Origin: an uncultured Spirochaetota bacterium
GTDB lineage: Bacteria; Spirochaetota; Brevinematia; Brevinematales; JAOACQ01
NCBI GenBank assembly: GCA_963768055.1
Contig: CAVYGN010000001.1
Coordinates: 416,001-480,000 of the forward strand
DNA: 64,000 nt
Direction of reading: 5' to 3'
In this document: positions 19,537 to 25,044 of the stretch, piece by piece
Layout: every line of letters starts with the position of its first letter
Position numbering within the stretch: the stretch's first letter is position 1
Made by a program: the position numbers and the translations under genes
The notes under the pieces: model-generated
Told to the model about the DNA's origin: nothing
Databases searched by the model: none
What the model saw: the letters and a program-made list of their open reading frames with translations, nothing else

Positions 19537-19610
19537 ATGTAAATTAAAACTTCGATTATGTAAATTTATTAAAGATCATGTAAAGTAATACTTCGATAAT
19601 GTAAATTAAA
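19537..19610. promoter_or_regulatory. Four phased direct repeats (core ATGTAAA), probable AraC binding sites
   Basis: ATGTAAA at 19537, 19558, 19578 and 19599 (spacing 21/20/21), between araC and the divergent hydrolase. Confidence 0.65.
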
Positions 19611-19687
19611 ATCTATCGCAATGTGTTAGAGTATTATCGATTGAAATTACTAAAGGATAATATTTATAAATCTAAATGGAGGTGACT

Positions 19688-21535
19688 ATGCTAAATAAAG
19701 AAATCGGATTTTCAGGATCATTTGCCGCTTTGTTTTTTGCATTATTAATTTCAGGCTGCTCGCAGAAAGAAGTTTCAAAACCGGACCTATCTGCTATCAA
19801 GGGAAATCCCGATAACTTTTGTAATTATATCAGCAATGTTATTATTTTTGAAATGGCCAAAGAAAGTATTACAGGCCTTGCCGTTGCTGTTGTAGATGAC
19901 AGGGAAACCATTTACCAGGCCGGATTCGGATATGCCGACACCGCAATAAAGGCACCCGTTACTTCCGATAGCATTTTCGAACTATGTTCTATATCCAAGC
20001 TTTTTACCGCTACGGCCGTAATGCAGCTCTATGAAAAAGGGCTGATCGATCTCGATAAACCCATTACAACTTATCTTAGAGAATTTTCAATACGCATGCG
20101 TACAGCGAGCGAATCCGTCCCTACCGTAAGGATGCTTCTTTGCCATCATTCGGGCATCCCCTCGGATAGGGCCGGAGGGGCTTTCATCGGAACTAATTAT
20201 AACGTCGAGTACACCGGCGAATTCAAAAAAATAGCCAGCTTATTCAGCAATGAAACTATGGCTTATCCGCCGAATAAGGTGTTTTCATACGGCAATCTGG
20301 GCTACAGCCTACTGGGCGATATCGTGGAAAGGACGAGCGGCATGGATTTTGAAAAGTATGTTCAGAAGAATATATTGATCCCGCTTGGAATGAAAGATTC
20401 GTCGTTCGTTTTCAGGGATGATTTCAAAACCCGTTATATAAAGGGGTACCTGGAAGGGAAGGAGACCATCATTCCCGTAATCCGGGATATCCCCGCCGGA
20501 GGATTGAAAGCACCCATCGCCGATATGGCCAGATTCCTGAAAATGGTTATCGCGGGGGGAAGCCTGGATGGGGAAACGCTTTTGAAAACCGAAACCATGC
20601 ATGAAATGCTTAAAATCCAGAACCGAAACGTACCCCTGGACGGGAGCTTTAAAATAGGACTGGGCTACTGGAATTATAGTTTTCCGCAAATGCATGACGA
20701 AGTCGTTTACGGACATGACGGCGACTTGCCGCCGTTCCATTCTCTGATCCTTTTCATGCCTGAAAGAAAGATAGGGCTGGTCGTAATGATCAACTCGATT
20801 CACGGTGCGATGGGCTCGTCTTTGGATCTCTTTCCGATAGCGATTAAAACCCTCTCCGCGCTGATAGAGATGAAAACCGGAAAACCTTATGATACGATTC
20901 CAGCTGAATCTCCCCGGCGGGATTTTACGGCAGGCGAAATCTCAAACTTGCCTGGATATTACGCGGGCTGGCTTGGATTTTCAAGGATTAAGATAAACGG
21001 TTCCGGGCTTCAGGCTGAAATATCCGGAACCGACCTTGATCTATCGGCCCACCAGGATGGAACAATCAGTGAGCAGTATAAATTATTCGGGTTTATTCCT
21101 TTGAAAATTGAGTTTCTCGATCTGATGAGTCTCGAGCCTTTCGAATTCGAAGGAAATCCATGTTTCATGGTAAAATTATACGGGATTCCCTTTGCGACCG
21201 ATATTAAAGTCAAGCCGGCACCTGTACCGGAAAGCTGGGTAAAAGCGGCCGGGACATACATCTCAACCGAAGCGATGCCGTATGCGTCGGAATCGGAAAA
21301 CAGAATAAATCTTGTCTACGATAAAAAAACCGGCTTTTACTTTTGCAAAGTATGGGTGTTCGACGGTCCTGCGAATGCAATCGATTACCCCCTGGAAATA
21401 TTGAACGACCATGAAGCCGTTTTTATGGGTTACGGCAGACACCTGGGCGAGACTCTCCGGATTGAAAGAAGCGGTTCGAACTATATTCTTTATGGCAGCG
21501 GGATGATTTTGAATAAGCTGAATAACAATAATTGA
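19688..21535 (+). CDS. Beta-lactamase-family serine hydrolase lipoprotein
   Basis: Lipobox LISGC, SxxK (CSISK), YxN (YGN) and HDG motifs. Confidence 0.88.
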   Translation: MLNKEIGFSGSFAALFFALLISGCSQKEVSKPDLSAIKGNPDNFCNYISNVIIFEMAKESITGLAVAVVDDRETIYQAGFGYADTAIKAPVTSDSIFELCSISKLFTATAVMQLYEKGLIDLDKPITTYLREFSIRMRTASESVPTVRMLLCHHSGIPSDRAGGAFIGTNYNVEYTGEFKKIASLFSNETMAYPPNKVFSYGNLGYSLLGDIVERTSGMDFEKYVQKNILIPLGMKDSSFVFRDDFKTRYIKGYLEGKETIIPVIRDIPAGGLKAPIADMARFLKMVIAGGSLDGETLLKTETMHEMLKIQNRNVPLDGSFKIGLGYWNYSFPQMHDEVVYGHDGDLPPFHSLILFMPERKIGLVVMINSIHGAMGSSLDLFPIAIKTLSALIEMKTGKPYDTIPAESPRRDFTAGEISNLPGYYAGWLGFSRIKINGSGLQAEISGTDLDLSAHQDGTISEQYKLFGFIPLKIEFLDLMSLEPFEFEGNPCFMVKLYGIPFATDIKVKPAPVPESWVKAAGTYISTEAMPYASESENRINLVYDKKTGFYFCKVWVFDGPANAIDYPLEILNDHEAVFMGYGRHLGETLRIERSGSNYILYGSGMILNKLNNNN

Positions 21536-21770
21536 ACAGGACTATCCGAAACCGGCTTTCTGCCCTGCCCGGTATGAGACAAAACAACCGGCTTGACGAT
21601 CATATTGGTTTTAATGTAAATTTGATATTCGGATGACATTTTAAACACCAATTAATAATCAAAGGGGCGCAACCGCGCCGGGCTTCCCATGGCCAGGACG
21701 CCGGCAATGTACGGAATGGTCCAGCTTAAACCGCTCAATATGCAGATTGGGGCAAATGTGCGAATGATTT

Positions 21771-23117
21771 CTAAAAGTCTTCCTCGCTGGCGGGTTTGTC
21801 AGCGTCGGCCATTTCCGAGGTATAAGCGTAAGCTTTTTTCACAGCCATGTCCTTCGAGATCTCGAGGCATGTGATGGATAAGGGCGCGAATTTATATTCG
21901 AGAGTTGTTTCCCCAAACAAACCATTGAAATCGATCTTTATGTCCTGAAACGAATTTTTGCTCCAGTTGATGCAGAAAACGCTGACATTGCCCTGGCCGT
22001 CCCTGTAGGCGTAAACCCGGGTATCATTATTGATTTTGGATGCAAATATGTTGTACTTTTTCACGTGGTTTGAAAAAAGCATGTAAGCGTAATACATGGG
22101 TGTAGGCTTGAGGGAAACCGGCATGATGAAGCCTTCTCTCCAGAATTCGGAAATGCTCCATGGCATTACCGACATCAGGTCAGATTCGGAACTTGAAATA
22201 CCCAGGTTGTCGGCTATCCACAGTCCCGCTCCGAAAGAGCCCGGCATGGCGAAAGTTGCGGGTTTGGAAGGGTCACCGTCCGCCGAGGAATTCATCTCGC
22301 CGATGATGAGCGGGATGCCCGGGGCGGACGGGTCTGTCATCGTCCTGATATCTTTATAAAATTCAGTAAGATTGTCGTATTCTCCAATAGCGTTTTCGTA
22401 CGTAGCATTAGTCATTGGCCAATAGCCGTACCTGTGGATTGACAGGATATCAATATAAGGCCTGCATGCCGAAATGAAGGGAGGTATCCATTCGTCGTAT
22501 TTCCATCCAAGTTCGAGGCCTATTATCTTGATCCCCGGGAACTCTTTTTTTATGGCGGCTGAAATATTCGTAAAATTATCGATATAATTATAAACTGTAA
22601 AATTATTCAGGTTCGCTGCCGTAACATCTACATCGTTGGCCTGTTTGAGGGTCGGATACCCATCGGGTTCGTTGCCGATGCTTACATAACGCAATATGAA
22701 CCCCTTGGCAATAAAGTCTCTGATCAGGTTAGTGGCGCGGCTTATCCTTTCCGGGATCGTACCCCGGCTTATTACCGGAACCTGCAGCAGGGGCTGGGCG
22801 CCTACGGCGCGGCAATAATCGCCGAACTGCGTAAGGAACCTATCCGATAATTCTTCGGGGATTTCCGCGTCGTTGTTGATCCCGCCAGCCCTTAGTAACT
22901 TGATATCAAGCGCTTTAACGAGGGGCTCGGTACCGGCCACATAATTCCCCCATTTTTTTACCCAGCACCAGTAATTAAAACCGAAAAACAAAGGGTTCAG
23001 CTCTTTTGCCGGGGTTCCGCTTACTTTGATTTCAGTGATTATAGCATTGGTCTCAATGGAATATGCCGAAAATACAAAGACCCCCGGGAAAATAATGGCA
23101 ATAAATATTTTTTTCAC
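21771..23117 (-). CDS. Secreted clan GH-A glycoside hydrolase (GH44/51/79-like)
   Basis: Signal peptide, LLRAGG, acid/base IGNEPD, SIHRY and nucleophile IGEMN. Confidence 0.75.
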   Translation of the reverse strand: MKKIFIAIIFPGVFVFSAYSIETNAIITEIKVSGTPAKELNPLFFGFNYWCWVKKWGNYVAGTEPLVKALDIKLLRAGGINNDAEIPEELSDRFLTQFGDYCRAVGAQPLLQVPVISRGTIPERISRATNLIRDFIAKGFILRYVSIGNEPDGYPTLKQANDVDVTAANLNNFTVYNYIDNFTNISAAIKKEFPGIKIIGLELGWKYDEWIPPFISACRPYIDILSIHRYGYWPMTNATYENAIGEYDNLTEFYKDIRTMTDPSAPGIPLIIGEMNSSADGDPSKPATFAMPGSFGAGLWIADNLGISSSESDLMSVMPWSISEFWREGFIMPVSLKPTPMYYAYMLFSNHVKKYNIFASKINNDTRVYAYRDGQGNVSVFCINWSKNSFQDIKIDFNGLFGETTLEYKFAPLSITCLEISKDMAVKKAYAYTSEMADADKPASEEDF

Positions 23118-23150
23118 TATTATATCTCCTTTATCAACTTTTGCGGAAGC

Positions 23151-23867
23151 TTACGAATGTCCCCCTCCCAGCGATAAGCCGGACGTCTGTTCATTTGCCT
23201 CGATCTGGAACGCGTAAAGAAAGTCTCCCAGTTGTTTAATCTTTTGATCGGCGGGAATATCTCCTGTTATGTTAGATTTGATCTGCCCGGCGAGATTTCC
23301 TATCGCGCTGTTTAAATTATCCACTCCTGTGGAATTAATAGGCGGATACATGTAACCCGGTTCGGCATTCAAATTGACAATGACCTTTTCATTATCTTTG
23401 AACAGTTTCATAAAATTAGTAAAATCCGGTTTGTAGATAGTCTGGCAGCCCTCGCTATAGTTCGAAACCAGCCCGCCTGTGTGGATGCAGACTTCAGAGA
23501 TCAGCATCTGGTTTTTCATGGACGGATTGATCTTAACGCTGGGGAAAGTCATCATATTTTCGGATAACTCATTCTCCGAATTTATTTTATCTAAAAATTC
23601 CCGCCTGAAAAGCGTGAAATGCCATCCTAATTTGCTGTTCTGATTCCAGATGCCGCAAAAAGTCCCGGGCGCCAGAATACCATGGATATTGTATTGATCT
23701 ATTCCGAATAATAACCGTGAGGGAATGGTCGATACATGATTTAAATGCAGAAGTTGTTTTTTCTCATCATCGAATACATCTATAGTGCTATCGTAAGCGT
23801 CCCCGTTTACAAGCTTGATAGCATCCCTGCTTCCGCCCCTTAAAATATTTATGATCTTTTCGTTCAT
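23151..23867 (-). CDS. Putative peptidoglycan-active enzyme (L,D-transpeptidase-like His/Cys motif) with holin-derived C-terminal tail
   Basis: IHTGG-x4-YSEGCQTI motif, no signal peptide, directly downstream of a holin. Confidence 0.55.
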   Translation of the reverse strand: MNEKIINILRGGSRDAIKLVNGDAYDSTIDVFDDEKKQLLHLNHVSTIPSRLLFGIDQYNIHGILAPGTFCGIWNQNSKLGWHFTLFRREFLDKINSENELSENMMTFPSVKINPSMKNQMLISEVCIHTGGLVSNYSEGCQTIYKPDFTNFMKLFKDNEKVIVNLNAEPGYMYPPINSTGVDNLNSAIGNLAGQIKSNITGDIPADQKIKQLGDFLYAFQIEANEQTSGLSLGGGHS

Positions 23868-23881
23868 TATAACCTCCCGTA

Positions 23882-24313
23882 TTAATGGTTATCCTGGACG
23901 GATTGGAGTTTCTCGACCGTCCTCATTGTCCCGAGTCCGAGCATGCCCCCGAGAGTGGTAATAATAAGGCTTGAGTCGGGCGGAGCGATTTTTATAGCCG
24001 AGCCGAATATCGTGAGCCCCCACTGCATAAGGGGATAAAGAATCACGCACCATGCGAAACCCAGACCGCAGATCCAGCCTATGAACGGTCGCCATCCCGC
24101 GACAAACCAGTTGGTCGATTTCGCTTCCTCAAGGTTGACGTCTGCCTGCTCTTTATCTCCAGCCTGGACGGCGTTAAGCGCATCCTCGAGCTGTTTCAGC
24201 TTCAGTTCGGGGGAAGCTTCCCCGGTAATCGCCGATCTCAGCTGGCCGGCAAAATTTCCGACTGCGCTGACCACATCCCCGACGCCTTTAGCGTCTAAAT
24301 TTACCAACGCCAT
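23882..24313 (-). CDS. 3TM holin (GTA_holin_3TM-like)
   Basis: VNLEEAKSTNWFVAGWRPFIGWICG and LGGMLGLGTMRTVEK motifs. GGAGG RBS. Confidence 0.88.
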   Translation of the reverse strand: MALVNLDAKGVGDVVSAVGNFAGQLRSAITGEASPELKLKQLEDALNAVQAGDKEQADVNLEEAKSTNWFVAGWRPFIGWICGLGFAWCVILYPLMQWGLTIFGSAIKIAPPDSSLIITTLGGMLGLGTMRTVEKLQSVQDNH

Positions 24314-24570
24314 AATTTATCCTCCCTCTTCGAATTTTTTGAATAAGCCTTCAACAATATTTAATCATTTTATATCTTTTTTAATGTTAAATCAATAGGT
24401 TTTTAACAAATATTTTAAAATTGGCGATTTTCTATTTCCCTGATCCGGATCTGTCTTCCGGAGCCGGTAAACCTGTAAGCCGCATGAGCAAAAATTCCTA
24501 TAAGGATAGTATCGATTCCCGTTTATAATGTTCCGCAGCCTATTCAATTGATCAATCTCCTCTACATCTT

Positions 24571-24630: not shown

Positions 24631-25044
24631 ATGATCATCCCTATCATCGAGATCGGGAATTCCAAGGGGATCAGGATCCCGCAGGCTGTTTTAAAGCAGG
24701 TAAGTTTCGGGGAAGAGGTCGAAATGCTCGTTTCCGAAGGAAAGATCACTTTACGCCGCAAGACCGGCCAGAACCAGGTCCAGGATTTTTCGACCCTTTC
24801 CGGCATGGACGATGCTTCAATACAGCGGGTGCTTCTTAAGATAACCGGTACCGACATGATCACCGCGCTGGTCGGCGCGGAAGATGGCGTCAAGGAGGCG
24901 GTTTACCGCAATCTCTCAGACCCGGTCAGGAATTATGTCAAACCCAAGGTTGAACGGCTTGAACATGGCGACGCCCGCGATCTGATAATCGAGCGCAGCC
25001 GCAATATGATAGCCGAAGCTTTAATGGAAGTAACGAGAGAGTGA
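24631..25044 (+). CDS. AbrB/MazE/SpoVT DNA-binding domain fused to a FliG C-terminal-like domain
   Basis: IIEIGNSKGIRIPQAVL at the N-terminus. MDDASIQRVL...MITALVGA..VKEAVYRNLS resembles FliG_C. Confidence 0.7.
   Translation: MIIPIIEIGNSKGIRIPQAVLKQVSFGEEVEMLVSEGKITLRRKTGQNQVQDFSTLSGMDDASIQRVLLKITGTDMITALVGAEDGVKEAVYRNLSDPVRNYVKPKVERLEHGDARDLIIERSRNMIAEALMEVTRE

What the first reader, a model, noticed from the sequence alone, without database searches (positions are those of the whole stretch)
21771..24313. Phage-free holin / cell-wall enzyme / secreted glycosidase operon: candidate type-10-like secretion or programmed-lysis system
Seen: three co-oriented genes with 14- and 33-nt gaps and RBSs. 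They encode a 3TM holin, a signal-less protein with an IH-x8-SEGC motif, and a signal-peptide GH-A glycosidase. No phage structural, integrase or replication gene is nearby. Known: H..S.GC is the catalytic motif of the YkuD/L,D-transpeptidase fold, and holin plus peptidoglycan hydrolase pairs export enzymes in Serratia (ChiW/ChiX) and related T10SS. Inference: a domesticated lysis module with an L,D-type enzyme that releases the glycosidase.
Basis: partly seen in the sequence, partly recalled or inferred. Interest (0 to 1): 0.82.

Follow-up and report, generated by a model that had tools for sequence, protein, structure and literature searches.

The report
Orphan phage lysis pair beside glycosidase
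A phage-type membrane-hole protein and an unusual cell-wall-cutting enzyme sit alone, without any phage, directly in front of a secreted sugar-cleaving enzyme, and may help release it, though that link is seen only in this species.

Summary
The three genes are real. They lie on the minus strand with 14- and 33-nt gaps and ribosome-binding sites.

- **Gene 1** is a PF11351/PHROG-3427 holin.
- **A new feature** is the C-terminal tail of gene 2 (residues 177-238). It copies the neighbouring holin's N-terminal soluble domain (44% identity, E 2e-11). None of 77 family representatives has this tail.
- **Gene 3** is a Sec-signal, GH79-like clan GH-A glycosidase.

No phage structural genes were found in the genome. 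In a diverged strain both lysis genes change mostly at synonymous sites.

Against a dedicated export system:
- The holin is in 0 of 40 relatives.
- The closest glycosidase relatives lack the pair.

Verdict: this is a domesticated or stranded phage lysis pair. Type-10-like release of the glycosidase is plausible but unproven.

The parts
24367..24395 (-). Sigma-70-like promoter match upstream of the holin (TTGATT-17-TAAAAT)
   Evidence: 9 of 12 matches. The number of sites in the region (10) is not above the shuffles (6.8 +/- 2.3), so this is weak evidence.
23882..24313 (-). Holin, 143 aa. It has an N-terminal soluble helical domain (about residues 1-68) followed by a hydrophobic membrane part.
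   Evidence: PF11351 E 1.5e-12. PHROG 3427 holin E 1.1e-23. 554 viral-contig matches. GC is 54.6% against 41.5% for the genome. 8 of 8 changed codons in a diverged strain are synonymous.
23340..23867 (-). Catalytic domain of the middle protein (residues 1-176). It is a YkuD-fold putative L,D-peptidase endolysin without a signal peptide.
23151..23339 (-). C-terminal tail of the middle protein (residues 177-238 plus stop). It is a copy of the holin's N-terminal soluble domain and ends where the holin's first TM would begin.
   Evidence: BLASTP of holin 6-57 against tail 177-228: 23/52 identical, E 2e-11. 0 of 100000 shuffles reach that identity. The tail keeps the holin-family invariant residues Q56 and N60. 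Its closest match is the window's own holin, 45.8 bits against 27.7 for the next. The tail is absent from all 77 other family representatives. It is predicted as two helices, 180-200 and 206-229.
21771..23117 (-). Sec-signal clan GH-A glycosidase, GH79-like, 448 aa
21666..21679 (-). Terminator-like hairpin about 90 nt after the GH stop codon
   Evidence: 5 GC pairs with a weak T tail. The count in the region (5) is not above the shuffles (4.2 +/- 2.1).

Best explanation
This is a mosaic two-gene lysis cassette of phage origin that persists without a phage. It is probably transcribed together with the glycosidase gene behind it.

Shown:
- Gene 1 is a PF11351-type holin.
- Gene 2 belongs to an uncharacterised, mostly viral family of about 170 aa with a YkuD (L,D-transpeptidase/carboxypeptidase) fold and the His...Ser-x-Gly-Cys catalytic motif. 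In related bacteria this family fills the endolysin slot of prophage lysis cassettes.
- In this copy alone, the enzyme carries a C-terminal duplicate of the holin's soluble N-terminal domain.

Inferred mechanism:
- When expressed, the holin permeabilises the inner membrane.
- The signal-less enzyme then reaches the peptidoglycan and cuts L,D bonds of the stem peptides, acting as a carboxy- or endopeptidase.
- The wall is weakened or the cell lyses.
- A periplasmic, Sec-exported GH79-like glycosidase made from the same transcript would be released as a result.

The link to the glycosidase is specific to this species. It may be a recent adaptation or a mere juxtaposition.
For: **Holin identity.** PF11351 and PHROG 3427 matches.

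**YkuD fold and motif.**
- Foldseek E 4.8e-4 to Csd6.
- 20 of the 21 weak profile hits in the PDB are L,D-transpeptidases.
- 11 of 50 family members weakly hit PF03734 and 6 of 50 hit Tlde1.
- N114, H129, S138 and C141 are invariant.

**Endolysin role by position.**
- Homologues in G003, G018, G009, G019 and G015 lie among tail, baseplate or terminase genes.
- They are flanked by small TM proteins.
- The nearest Atlas clusters are 70-93% viral.
- BFVD look-alikes include a protein named 'Lysin' and one named 'L,D-carboxypeptidase/transpeptidase'.

**Orphan status.**
- No sheath, HK97 capsid, baseplate J, two terminase families or portal in the 94.75%-complete genome.
- No tblastn hit to the relatives' prophage structural proteins.
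- No tRNA in the window.

**Selection.**
- Contigs of a diverged strain from a second study cover the holin, the middle gene and the spacer between the middle gene and the GH.
- The listed changes are synonymous in 8 of 8 holin codons and 19 of 23 middle-gene codons.

**Operon-like layout.**
- Gaps of 14 and 33 nt with RBSs.
- One promoter-like site upstream and one terminator-like site downstream.

**Literature.**
- YkuD-family enzymes act as LD-transpeptidases, carboxypeptidases or endopeptidases (PMC12729407, passages read).
- YkuD domains are a rare class of phage lytic proteins, 10 entries in PhaLP (PMC8310338, table passage read).
Against: - No enzymatic or expression data exist.
- The middle protein itself does not reach any Pfam, PHROG or NCBIfam model.
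- The promoter and terminator counts do not exceed the shuffled controls.
- The pairing of this holin family with this enzyme family was found nowhere else: 0 of 144 holin loci.
- The pair is absent from 40 relatives, so it may be a recent arrival that has not yet had time to decay.
- No spanin-like gene accompanies it, although the organism has a BamA homologue and so is probably diderm. Full lysis may therefore be inefficient.
- An L,D-carboxypeptidase alone would not lyse a cell.
- The substitutions I analysed are only the 37 best-supported rows printed; 223 more were not shown.
Confidence: 0.6

Rival explanations
1. It is a true type-10-like secretion system. The holin releases the YkuD-like enzyme in a controlled, non-lytic or subpopulation-limited way. 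Local peptidoglycan remodelling then lets the Sec-exported glycosidase pass the wall and leave the cell.
For: - Tight co-oriented layout with the GH.
- Phage-free genome.
- Purifying selection on both lysis genes, and the same junctions in a diverged strain.
- No spanin-like gene in the cassette.
- The review PMC9527704 (passages read) states that Sec-translocated chitinases are often linked to holin/endolysin pairs that let them pass the peptidoglycan. The signal peptide on the GH therefore fits this reading.
Against: - The linkage is unique to this species. PF11351 is in 0 of 40 relatives.
- GH homologues occur in 9 of 40 relatives. The G001 and G002 loci, examined over about +/-10 kb, lack a neighbouring holin or enzyme.
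- Two paralogues in the same genome sit elsewhere.
- Gene order in this genus is heavily shuffled, so adjacency can arise by chance.
- No secretion or expression data exist.
Confidence: 0.2
2. It is an inert leftover. The pair is the last surviving piece of a deleted prophage that landed by chance upstream of a resident glycosidase gene. The enzyme-holin fusion is a recombination scar.
For: - Both genes are of phage origin.
- The holin's GC content (54.6%) is foreign to a 41.5% genome.
- The pair is absent from all 40 relatives.
- The tail starts at about holin residue 6 and stops just before TM1. This is what fusion with, and truncation of, a second holin copy would give.
Against: - Both reading frames are intact.
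- Changed codons in a diverged strain are 8/8 and 19/23 synonymous.
- There is no integrase, tRNA, att-like repeat or other phage remnant nearby.
- The tail keeps an open frame, its helical prediction and the family's invariant Q and N.
Confidence: 0.17
3. It is the lysis module of a gene transfer agent, tailocin or cryptic phage encoded elsewhere in the genome. The model is the Rhodobacter capsulatus GTA, whose endolysin-holin locus lies away from the structural cluster.
For: - The holin belongs to the family named after the GTA holin.
- In R. capsulatus the locus rcc00555-rcc00556 lies outside the structural cluster and is needed for lysis and release (PMC5026251, passages read).
Against: - Six structural families were searched in the own genome with no hit: sheath, HK97 capsid, baseplate J, TerL_ATPase, Terminase_6N and portal.
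- tblastn with 20 prophage proteins of relatives found only integrases.
- The genome is 94.75% complete, and divergent structural genes could still be missed.
Confidence: 0.03

Closest known systems
Phage holin-endolysin lysis cassettes with YkuD-type lytic domains (a rare class in PhaLP)
   Same: A holin is followed by a signal-less cell-wall enzyme. The enzyme family occupies lysis cassettes of prophages in related genomes. The YkuD fold and His/Cys motif are present.
   Different: - No phage surrounds the pair here.
- No spanin-like gene is present.
- The enzyme does not reach the Pfam YkuD model.
- The enzyme carries a copy of the holin's N-domain.
Type 10 secretion systems (Serratia ChiW/ChiX; Salmonella TtsA with typhoid toxin or ChiA)
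   Same: A phage-derived holin and a peptidoglycan hydrolase lie next to a secreted hydrolase with no phage genes around. The cargo may carry a Sec signal (PMC9527704, passages read).
   Different: - The enzyme class differs: YkuD fold here, against a metallo-endopeptidase in ChiX or a muramidase in TtsA (partly recalled, partly from titles seen).
- The linkage to the cargo is not conserved beyond this species.
- No secretion evidence exists.
RcGTA endolysin-holin locus rcc00555-rcc00556
   Same: The holin Pfam family is the same (PF11351). The chromosomal pair stands apart from any structural genes (PMC5026251, passages read).
   Different: - No GTA structural cluster was found in this genome.
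- The gene order and the enzyme family were not compared directly.
L,D-carboxypeptidases Csd6 (Helicobacter), Pgp2 (Campylobacter) and Bd1075 (Bdellovibrio); T6SS effector Tlde1
   Different: - Sequence identity is only 10-16%.
- Those enzymes are exported housekeeping or effector proteins and are not holin-dependent.
- They lack the holin-like tail.
Natural holin-endolysin fusions (TpeE-family holin fused to its endolysin in Clostridium sporogenes)
   Same: Holin sequence and endolysin sequence are joined in one polypeptide (PMC9527704, passages read).
   Different: - There, a whole holin with its TM helix sits at the N-terminus of the enzyme.
- Here, only the soluble N-domain of the holin is present, without a TM helix. 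It sits at the C-terminus of the enzyme, and an intact separate holin gene is kept.

Membership tests
PF11351 GTA_holin_3TM (holin) | Match to the family model above its curated cut-off | tested here: met
   48.5 bits against a cut-off of 24.8, E 1.5e-12, covering 3-117 of 123 profile positions. PHROG 3427 holin E 1.1e-23.
PF11351 GTA_holin_3TM (holin) | Three transmembrane helices | tested here: inconclusive
   A crude Kyte-Doolittle scan (window 19, threshold 1.6) found one strong segment, 77-95. Weaker hydrophobic stretches follow. No dedicated TM predictor was run.
YkuD / L,D-transpeptidase-fold enzymes (PF03734) | YkuD catalytic-domain fold | tested here: met
YkuD / L,D-transpeptidase-fold enzymes (PF03734) | Catalytic His and the Ser-x-Gly-Cys motif | tested here: met
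   H129, S138 and C141 are invariant in 50 sequences. In the profile alignment to 5bmq these residues align with its IHE...SHGC. The residue two positions after the Cys is a near-invariant Thr.
YkuD / L,D-transpeptidase-fold enzymes (PF03734) | Match to the Pfam model above its gathering score | tested here: not met
   The window protein has no hit at E <= 0.1 or E <= 1. 11 of 50 relatives hit weakly, best E 7.3e-4. It is a distant relative by fold and not a Pfam member.
YkuD / L,D-transpeptidase-fold enzymes (PF03734) | Activity on L,D bonds of peptidoglycan stem peptides | not testable with these tools
   Needs a muropeptide assay.
Phage endolysin (functional class) | Encoded in a lysis cassette beside a holin, and lacking a signal peptide | tested here: met
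   In the window it starts 14 nt after the holin and has no hydrophobic N-terminus. In 5 relatives it lies in prophage regions flanked by small TM proteins. The sixth full-length homologue, G006 locus L026, was not scanned.
Type 10 secretion system | Phage-derived holin plus peptidoglycan hydrolase without phage structural genes | tested here: met
   for the two genes. for the absence of structural genes, within the limits of six families and 20 tblastn queries.
Type 10 secretion system | Conserved genetic linkage of the pair with its cargo across genomes | tested here: not met
   - PF11351 in 0 of 40 relatives.
- GH homologues in 9 of 40 relatives. The two closest, G001 and G002, lack the pair within about 9-10 kb.
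- The linkage is seen only in the own genome and in contigs of a diverged strain.
Type 10 secretion system | Holin- and hydrolase-dependent release of the cargo | not testable with these tools
   Needs genetics and secretome work. No RNA run was listed.
Glycoside hydrolase family 79 (clan GH-A) | Sequence and fold relationship; (beta/alpha)8 barrel plus beta-sandwich; NEP acid/base and a Glu nucleophile | tested here: inconclusive
   - Profile of 7 homologues against PDB: heparanase E 2.9e-10, GH79 beta-glucuronidase about 6e-6.
- The NEP and GE motifs are invariant in A6.
- No Pfam GH family was hit at E <= 0.1.

Clan GH-A is secure. The family assignment is tentative.
RcGTA-type lysis locus | A GTA structural cluster elsewhere in the genome | tested here: not met
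   No hit for PF04984, PF05065, PF04865, PF03354, PF03237 or PF04860 in the own genome. The genome is 94.75% complete.

The most novel reading that the evidence does not exclude
The holin-derived tail may be a docking or timing module. By mimicking the holin's own soluble N-domain, it would let the YkuD-fold enzyme co-assemble with the holin, or act as a built-in antiholin. Wall cutting would then be confined to the holin sites. This would turn a phage lysis cassette into a gentle release device for the periplasmic glycosidase. It would be a new way of coupling holin and endolysin, and the first type-10-like system built on an L,D-peptidase.
Probability: 0.12. Interest if true: 0.8.

Novelty: new variant of a known kind. 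Interest (0 to 1): 0.5.

Why it matters
- **Enzyme class.** Holin-endolysin pairs recruited by bacteria for protein release are so far known with muramidases and metallo-endopeptidases. A YkuD-fold L,D-peptidase in that role would add a new enzyme class.
- **Uncharacterised family.** The family is mostly viral and about 170 aa long. It has at least 77 clusters at 50% identity besides the window's own. It appears to be an unrecognised endolysin type.
- **Testable fusion.** The fusion of the enzyme with a copy of the holin's soluble domain is a concrete, testable handle on how holins and their cargo recognise each other.
- **If the pair is only a stranded remnant,** the finding is of modest interest.

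Tried and rejected
- **Word-indexed homologue search.** A search with the middle protein found only itself. So did a search with the tail alone, residues 172-238.
- **The search for related loci.** Alignments A1 and A2 failed or found nothing. With the GH it gave only one irrelevant hit.
- **Direct library searches.** phmmer of the middle protein against the PDB gave nothing. NCBIfam and PADLOC gave nothing for any of the genes.
- **Expression.** No RNA holder was listed for the locus, so co-transcription could not be tested.
- **Complex prediction.** Complex prediction (holin alignment A5 with tail 170-238) was never run. The queue was full, and the tool was declared unavailable.
- **Insertion boundaries.** Synteny could not define them, because gene order around the locus is not conserved even within the genus.
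- **Att-like repeats.** None flank the pair. Only short, chance-level repeats were found.
- **Lipoprotein idea.** I considered that the window GH differs from relatives by having lost a lipoprotein Cys because it is the 'released' copy. I rejected this because the two unlinked paralogues in the same genome also lack the Cys.
- **Codon-position pattern of tail against holin.** The pattern is 33/40/19 identical of 52. It shows divergence under protein-level constraint. It cannot date the fusion, because both copies may have diverged as holins before fusing.
- **Earlier findings of this scan.** Nothing was found.
Full report
**Observation.** Three ORFs lie head to tail on the minus strand:
- 24313..23882, 143 aa
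- 23867..23151, 238 aa
- 23117..21771, 448 aa, GTG start

The spacers are 14 and 33 nt. Each start is preceded by a purine-rich Shine-Dalgarno-like motif. A simple scan places one sigma-70-like site upstream of the first gene (24395..24367) and one hairpin with a weak T tail about 90 nt after the third (21679..21666). The numbers of such sites in the region do not exceed the shuffled controls.

**Gene 1, the holin.**
- It matches PF11351 GTA_holin_3TM (E 1.5e-12, 48.5 bits against a cut-off of 24.8) and PHROG 3427 'holin' (E 1.1e-23).
- Relatives are abundant in viral contigs: 554 matches, of which 80 were kept. They also occur in 64 loci of mostly proteobacterial genomes, with one 'uncultured Spirochaetales' record at 43% identity.
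- It is single-copy in its own genome. It was found in 0 of 40 related genomes.
- Its GC content (54.6%, GC3 0.63) stands out from the genome (41.5%) and from its two neighbours, at 42% and 47%.

**Gene 2, the enzyme: family and motif.**
- The protein hits no model in Pfam, PHROGs or NCBIfam and no PDB sequence.
- An exhaustive HMMER search of 1.84 billion representatives found 78 proteins at E <= 1e-3, including the query itself. Seven have E <= 1e-30. They are 144-255 aa long.
- Every match ends by query residue 177.
- In an alignment of 50 of them, N114, H129, S138 and C141 are invariant.
- Eleven of the 50 weakly match PF03734 YkuD (best E 7.3e-4) and six match Tlde1.
- A profile of the family finds 21 PDB sequences at E <= 10, of which 20 are L,D-transpeptidases. 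All are individually non-significant (best E 0.11). The His and the SxGC align with those of 5bmq.

**Gene 2, the enzyme: fold.**
- The AlphaFold model built on this alignment is confident (pLDDT 90.0, pTM 0.76).
- Foldseek ranks Csd6, Pgp2, YkuD and Bd1075 first, with E from 4.8e-4.

The fold claim is therefore supported. Strict Pfam membership is not.

**What the enzyme family does elsewhere.**
- Seven of 40 relatives have a match at E <= 0.01. Six of these are full-length homologues, at 28-41% identity.
- In five of the six (G003, G018, G009, G019, G015) the gene lies among tail, baseplate, sheath, portal or terminase genes.
- In those five it is flanked by small proteins with one or two hydrophobic segments, some with a coiled-coil region and a C-terminal anchor. 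This is the usual look of a lysis cassette.
- The sixth locus (G006, L026) was not scanned.
- The nearest ESM-Atlas clusters are unnamed proteins of about 190 aa that are 70-93% viral.
- BFVD look-alikes are uncharacterised Caudovirales proteins, one 'Lysin', DUF5675 proteins and one 'L,D-carboxypeptidase/transpeptidase'.
- PhaLP lists YkuD as a rare catalytic class of phage lytic proteins, with 10 entries (PMC8310338, table passage read).
- A recent review states that YkuD-family enzymes act as LD-transpeptidases, LD-carboxypeptidases or LD-endopeptidases (PMC12729407, passages read).

I therefore read gene 2 as a member of an uncharacterised phage endolysin family with an L,D-peptidase fold. 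The activity itself is inferred.

- Residues 177-228 of the enzyme are 44% identical (23 of 52, E 2e-11) to residues 6-57 of the holin next door.
- None of 100000 shuffles reaches that identity; the maximum was 14 of 52.
- The copy starts almost at the holin's first residues and ends just before its first membrane helix.
- It keeps the two residues of that region that are invariant in the holin family, Q56 and N60.
- It is predicted as two helices, 180-200 and 206-229, with pLDDT 64-80.

**Where the tail came from.**
- The tail resembles its own neighbour much more than any other holin tested: 45.8 bits against 27.7 for the next of 30.
- It is not a fresh duplicate. Nucleotide identity is 92 of 156, distributed 33/40/19 of 52 over codon positions 1/2/3. 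Its GC3 (0.48) differs from that of the holin's N-domain (0.61).
- None of the 77 other representatives has such a tail.
- None of 144 holin-bearing loci encodes this enzyme family (0 of 144 at E <= 1e-3) or a tail-like second copy.

So the cassette is a mosaic. The enzyme type is common in prophages of this bacterial group and has a host-like composition. The holin family is common in other phages. The two are joined through a gene fusion with the 5' part of a holin. Whether the tail now works as a docking or antiholin module or is a tolerated scar is open. The complex prediction meant to probe this could not be run.

**Gene 3, the glycosidase.**
- It has no Pfam hit.
- A profile of seven homologues matches heparanase (GH79) at E 2.9e-10 and GH79 beta-glucuronidases at about 6e-6.
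- The NEP and GE motifs are invariant among the homologues.
- It is a clan GH-A enzyme, nearest to GH79, and not a cell-wall lysozyme type.
- Its N-terminus is a plain signal peptide.
- Homologues occur in 9 of 40 relatives. The closest are in G002 (65%) and G001 (62%). The own genome has paralogues at 42% and 40%.
- In G001 and G002 the gene sits between glutamate-synthase-type genes and dehydroquinase/M24-peptidase genes. There is no holin or YkuD-like gene within about 9-10 kb.

**Is a phage nearby?**
- Among 34 ORFs of the window scanned with Pfam, the neighbours are ordinary chromosomal genes. They include a branched-chain amino-acid ABC transporter, an AraC regulator, a beta-lactamase-fold protein, an AbrB/MazE-FliG_C protein, UvrD and sugar-nucleotide genes.
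- The window has no tRNA and no convincing flanking repeat.
- The genome has two contigs and is 94.75% complete. It gave no hit for sheath, HK97 capsid, baseplate J, TerL_ATPase, Terminase_6N or portal models.
- tblastn with 20 proteins of the relatives' prophages found only integrases elsewhere.
- The organism has a BamA homologue, so it is probably diderm. It has one canonical YkuD gene elsewhere.
- No spanin-like gene accompanies the pair.

**Is the pair decaying?**
- Metagenome contigs from a second study hold a diverged version of the locus.
- One 624-nt contig spans the junction between the holin and the enzyme with 44 differences.
- Other contigs cover the enzyme gene and the 33-nt spacer before the GH, with indels at 23121 and 23135.
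- Of the differences printed, 8 of 8 changed holin codons and 19 of 23 changed enzyme codons are synonymous. Another 223 differences across the 12-kb stretch were not shown.

This argues for purifying selection and against a dead remnant. A young arrival could show the same pattern.

**Weighing the readings.**
- *Secure:* this is a phage-derived holin plus a YkuD-fold endolysin-family enzyme. The pair is orphaned in a genome without recognisable phage structural genes. It is packed with a Sec-exported GH79-like glycosidase in an operon-like layout.
- *Inferred:* the holin gates access of the signal-less enzyme to the wall, the enzyme cuts L,D bonds, and the glycosidase profits from the resulting lysis or wall opening.
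- *For a type-10-like role:* the review PMC9527704 (passages read) notes that Sec-translocated chitinases are often linked with holin/endolysin pairs. The signal peptide is therefore no objection.
- *Against a dedicated system:* the linkage is confined to this species. The glycosidase family works without the pair in relatives and at two other places in the same genome. Gene order in this genus is so shuffled that adjacency alone means little.
- *The GTA-type alternative:* a lysis locus serving particles encoded elsewhere, as in R. capsulatus (PMC5026251, passages read), finds no structural genes to serve.

I put 0.6 on a functional, selected orphan lysis pair whose connection to the glycosidase is real at the transcript level but of unproven purpose. 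I put 0.2 on a true non-lytic type-10-like exporter, 0.17 on an inert remnant and 0.03 on a remote GTA or tailocin module.

**Novelty and interest.** Holin/endolysin pairs outside phages are known. YkuD domains in phage lysins are known but rare. Whole holin-endolysin fusions have been noted in Clostridium sporogenes (PMC9527704). Three things are new here:
- the enzyme family in the endolysin slot
- its pairing with a PF11351 holin
- the fusion of the enzyme with only the soluble N-domain of its holin

My literature searches turned up no description of such a fusion or of this family. They covered open-access papers and preprints only. I rate this as a new variant of a known kind and of moderate interest.

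Noticed in passing
window 21771-23117; loci L014-L019; own genome C2:1883382-1884644 and C1:1791171-1792427: All six aligned homologues of the glycosidase in relatives carry a lipobox-like Cys after the signal h-region. The window copy and both paralogues in the own genome have no Cys, which makes theirs a plain Sec signal.
   Followed up: partly
window 24631-25044 (+): This gene runs divergently from the holin. It encodes a 137-aa protein with an AbrB/MazE-like N-terminus and a FliG_C-like domain. An 88% identical orthologue in G003 sits in an unrelated context. It could be a regulator, but nothing ties it to the cassette.
   Followed up: partly
L021 9578-9787 (-), genome G003: Directly downstream of the prophage homologue of the enzyme lies a 69-aa ORF that looks like the C-terminal fragment of a second YkuD-like gene, containing ...SDGCLTIYP....
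   Followed up: no
genomes G014 and G018 (family f4, genus g8), several places listed: The catalytic motif region of the enzyme (residues about 125-160) matches many large ORFs of 451-1038 aa at 41-56% identity. This suggests that YkuD-like domains are embedded in big proteins in that genus.
   Followed up: no
window flanks compared with G001, G002, G003, G006 (L027, L028, L174, L175): Gene order around the locus is almost completely unconserved, even within the genus. Orthologues of neighbouring genes are scattered over both contigs.
   Followed up: partly
G006:C6:90111-91954 (L175 12007-13961): The orthologue of the beta-lactamase-fold gene (window 19676-21535) appears broken into three pieces, with the middle piece inverted.
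   Followed up: no
window 19537-19607: Two 30-nt direct repeats (90% identical, 41 nt apart) lie in the intergenic region between the AraC-type regulator and the beta-lactamase-fold gene. They could be an operator.
   Followed up: no
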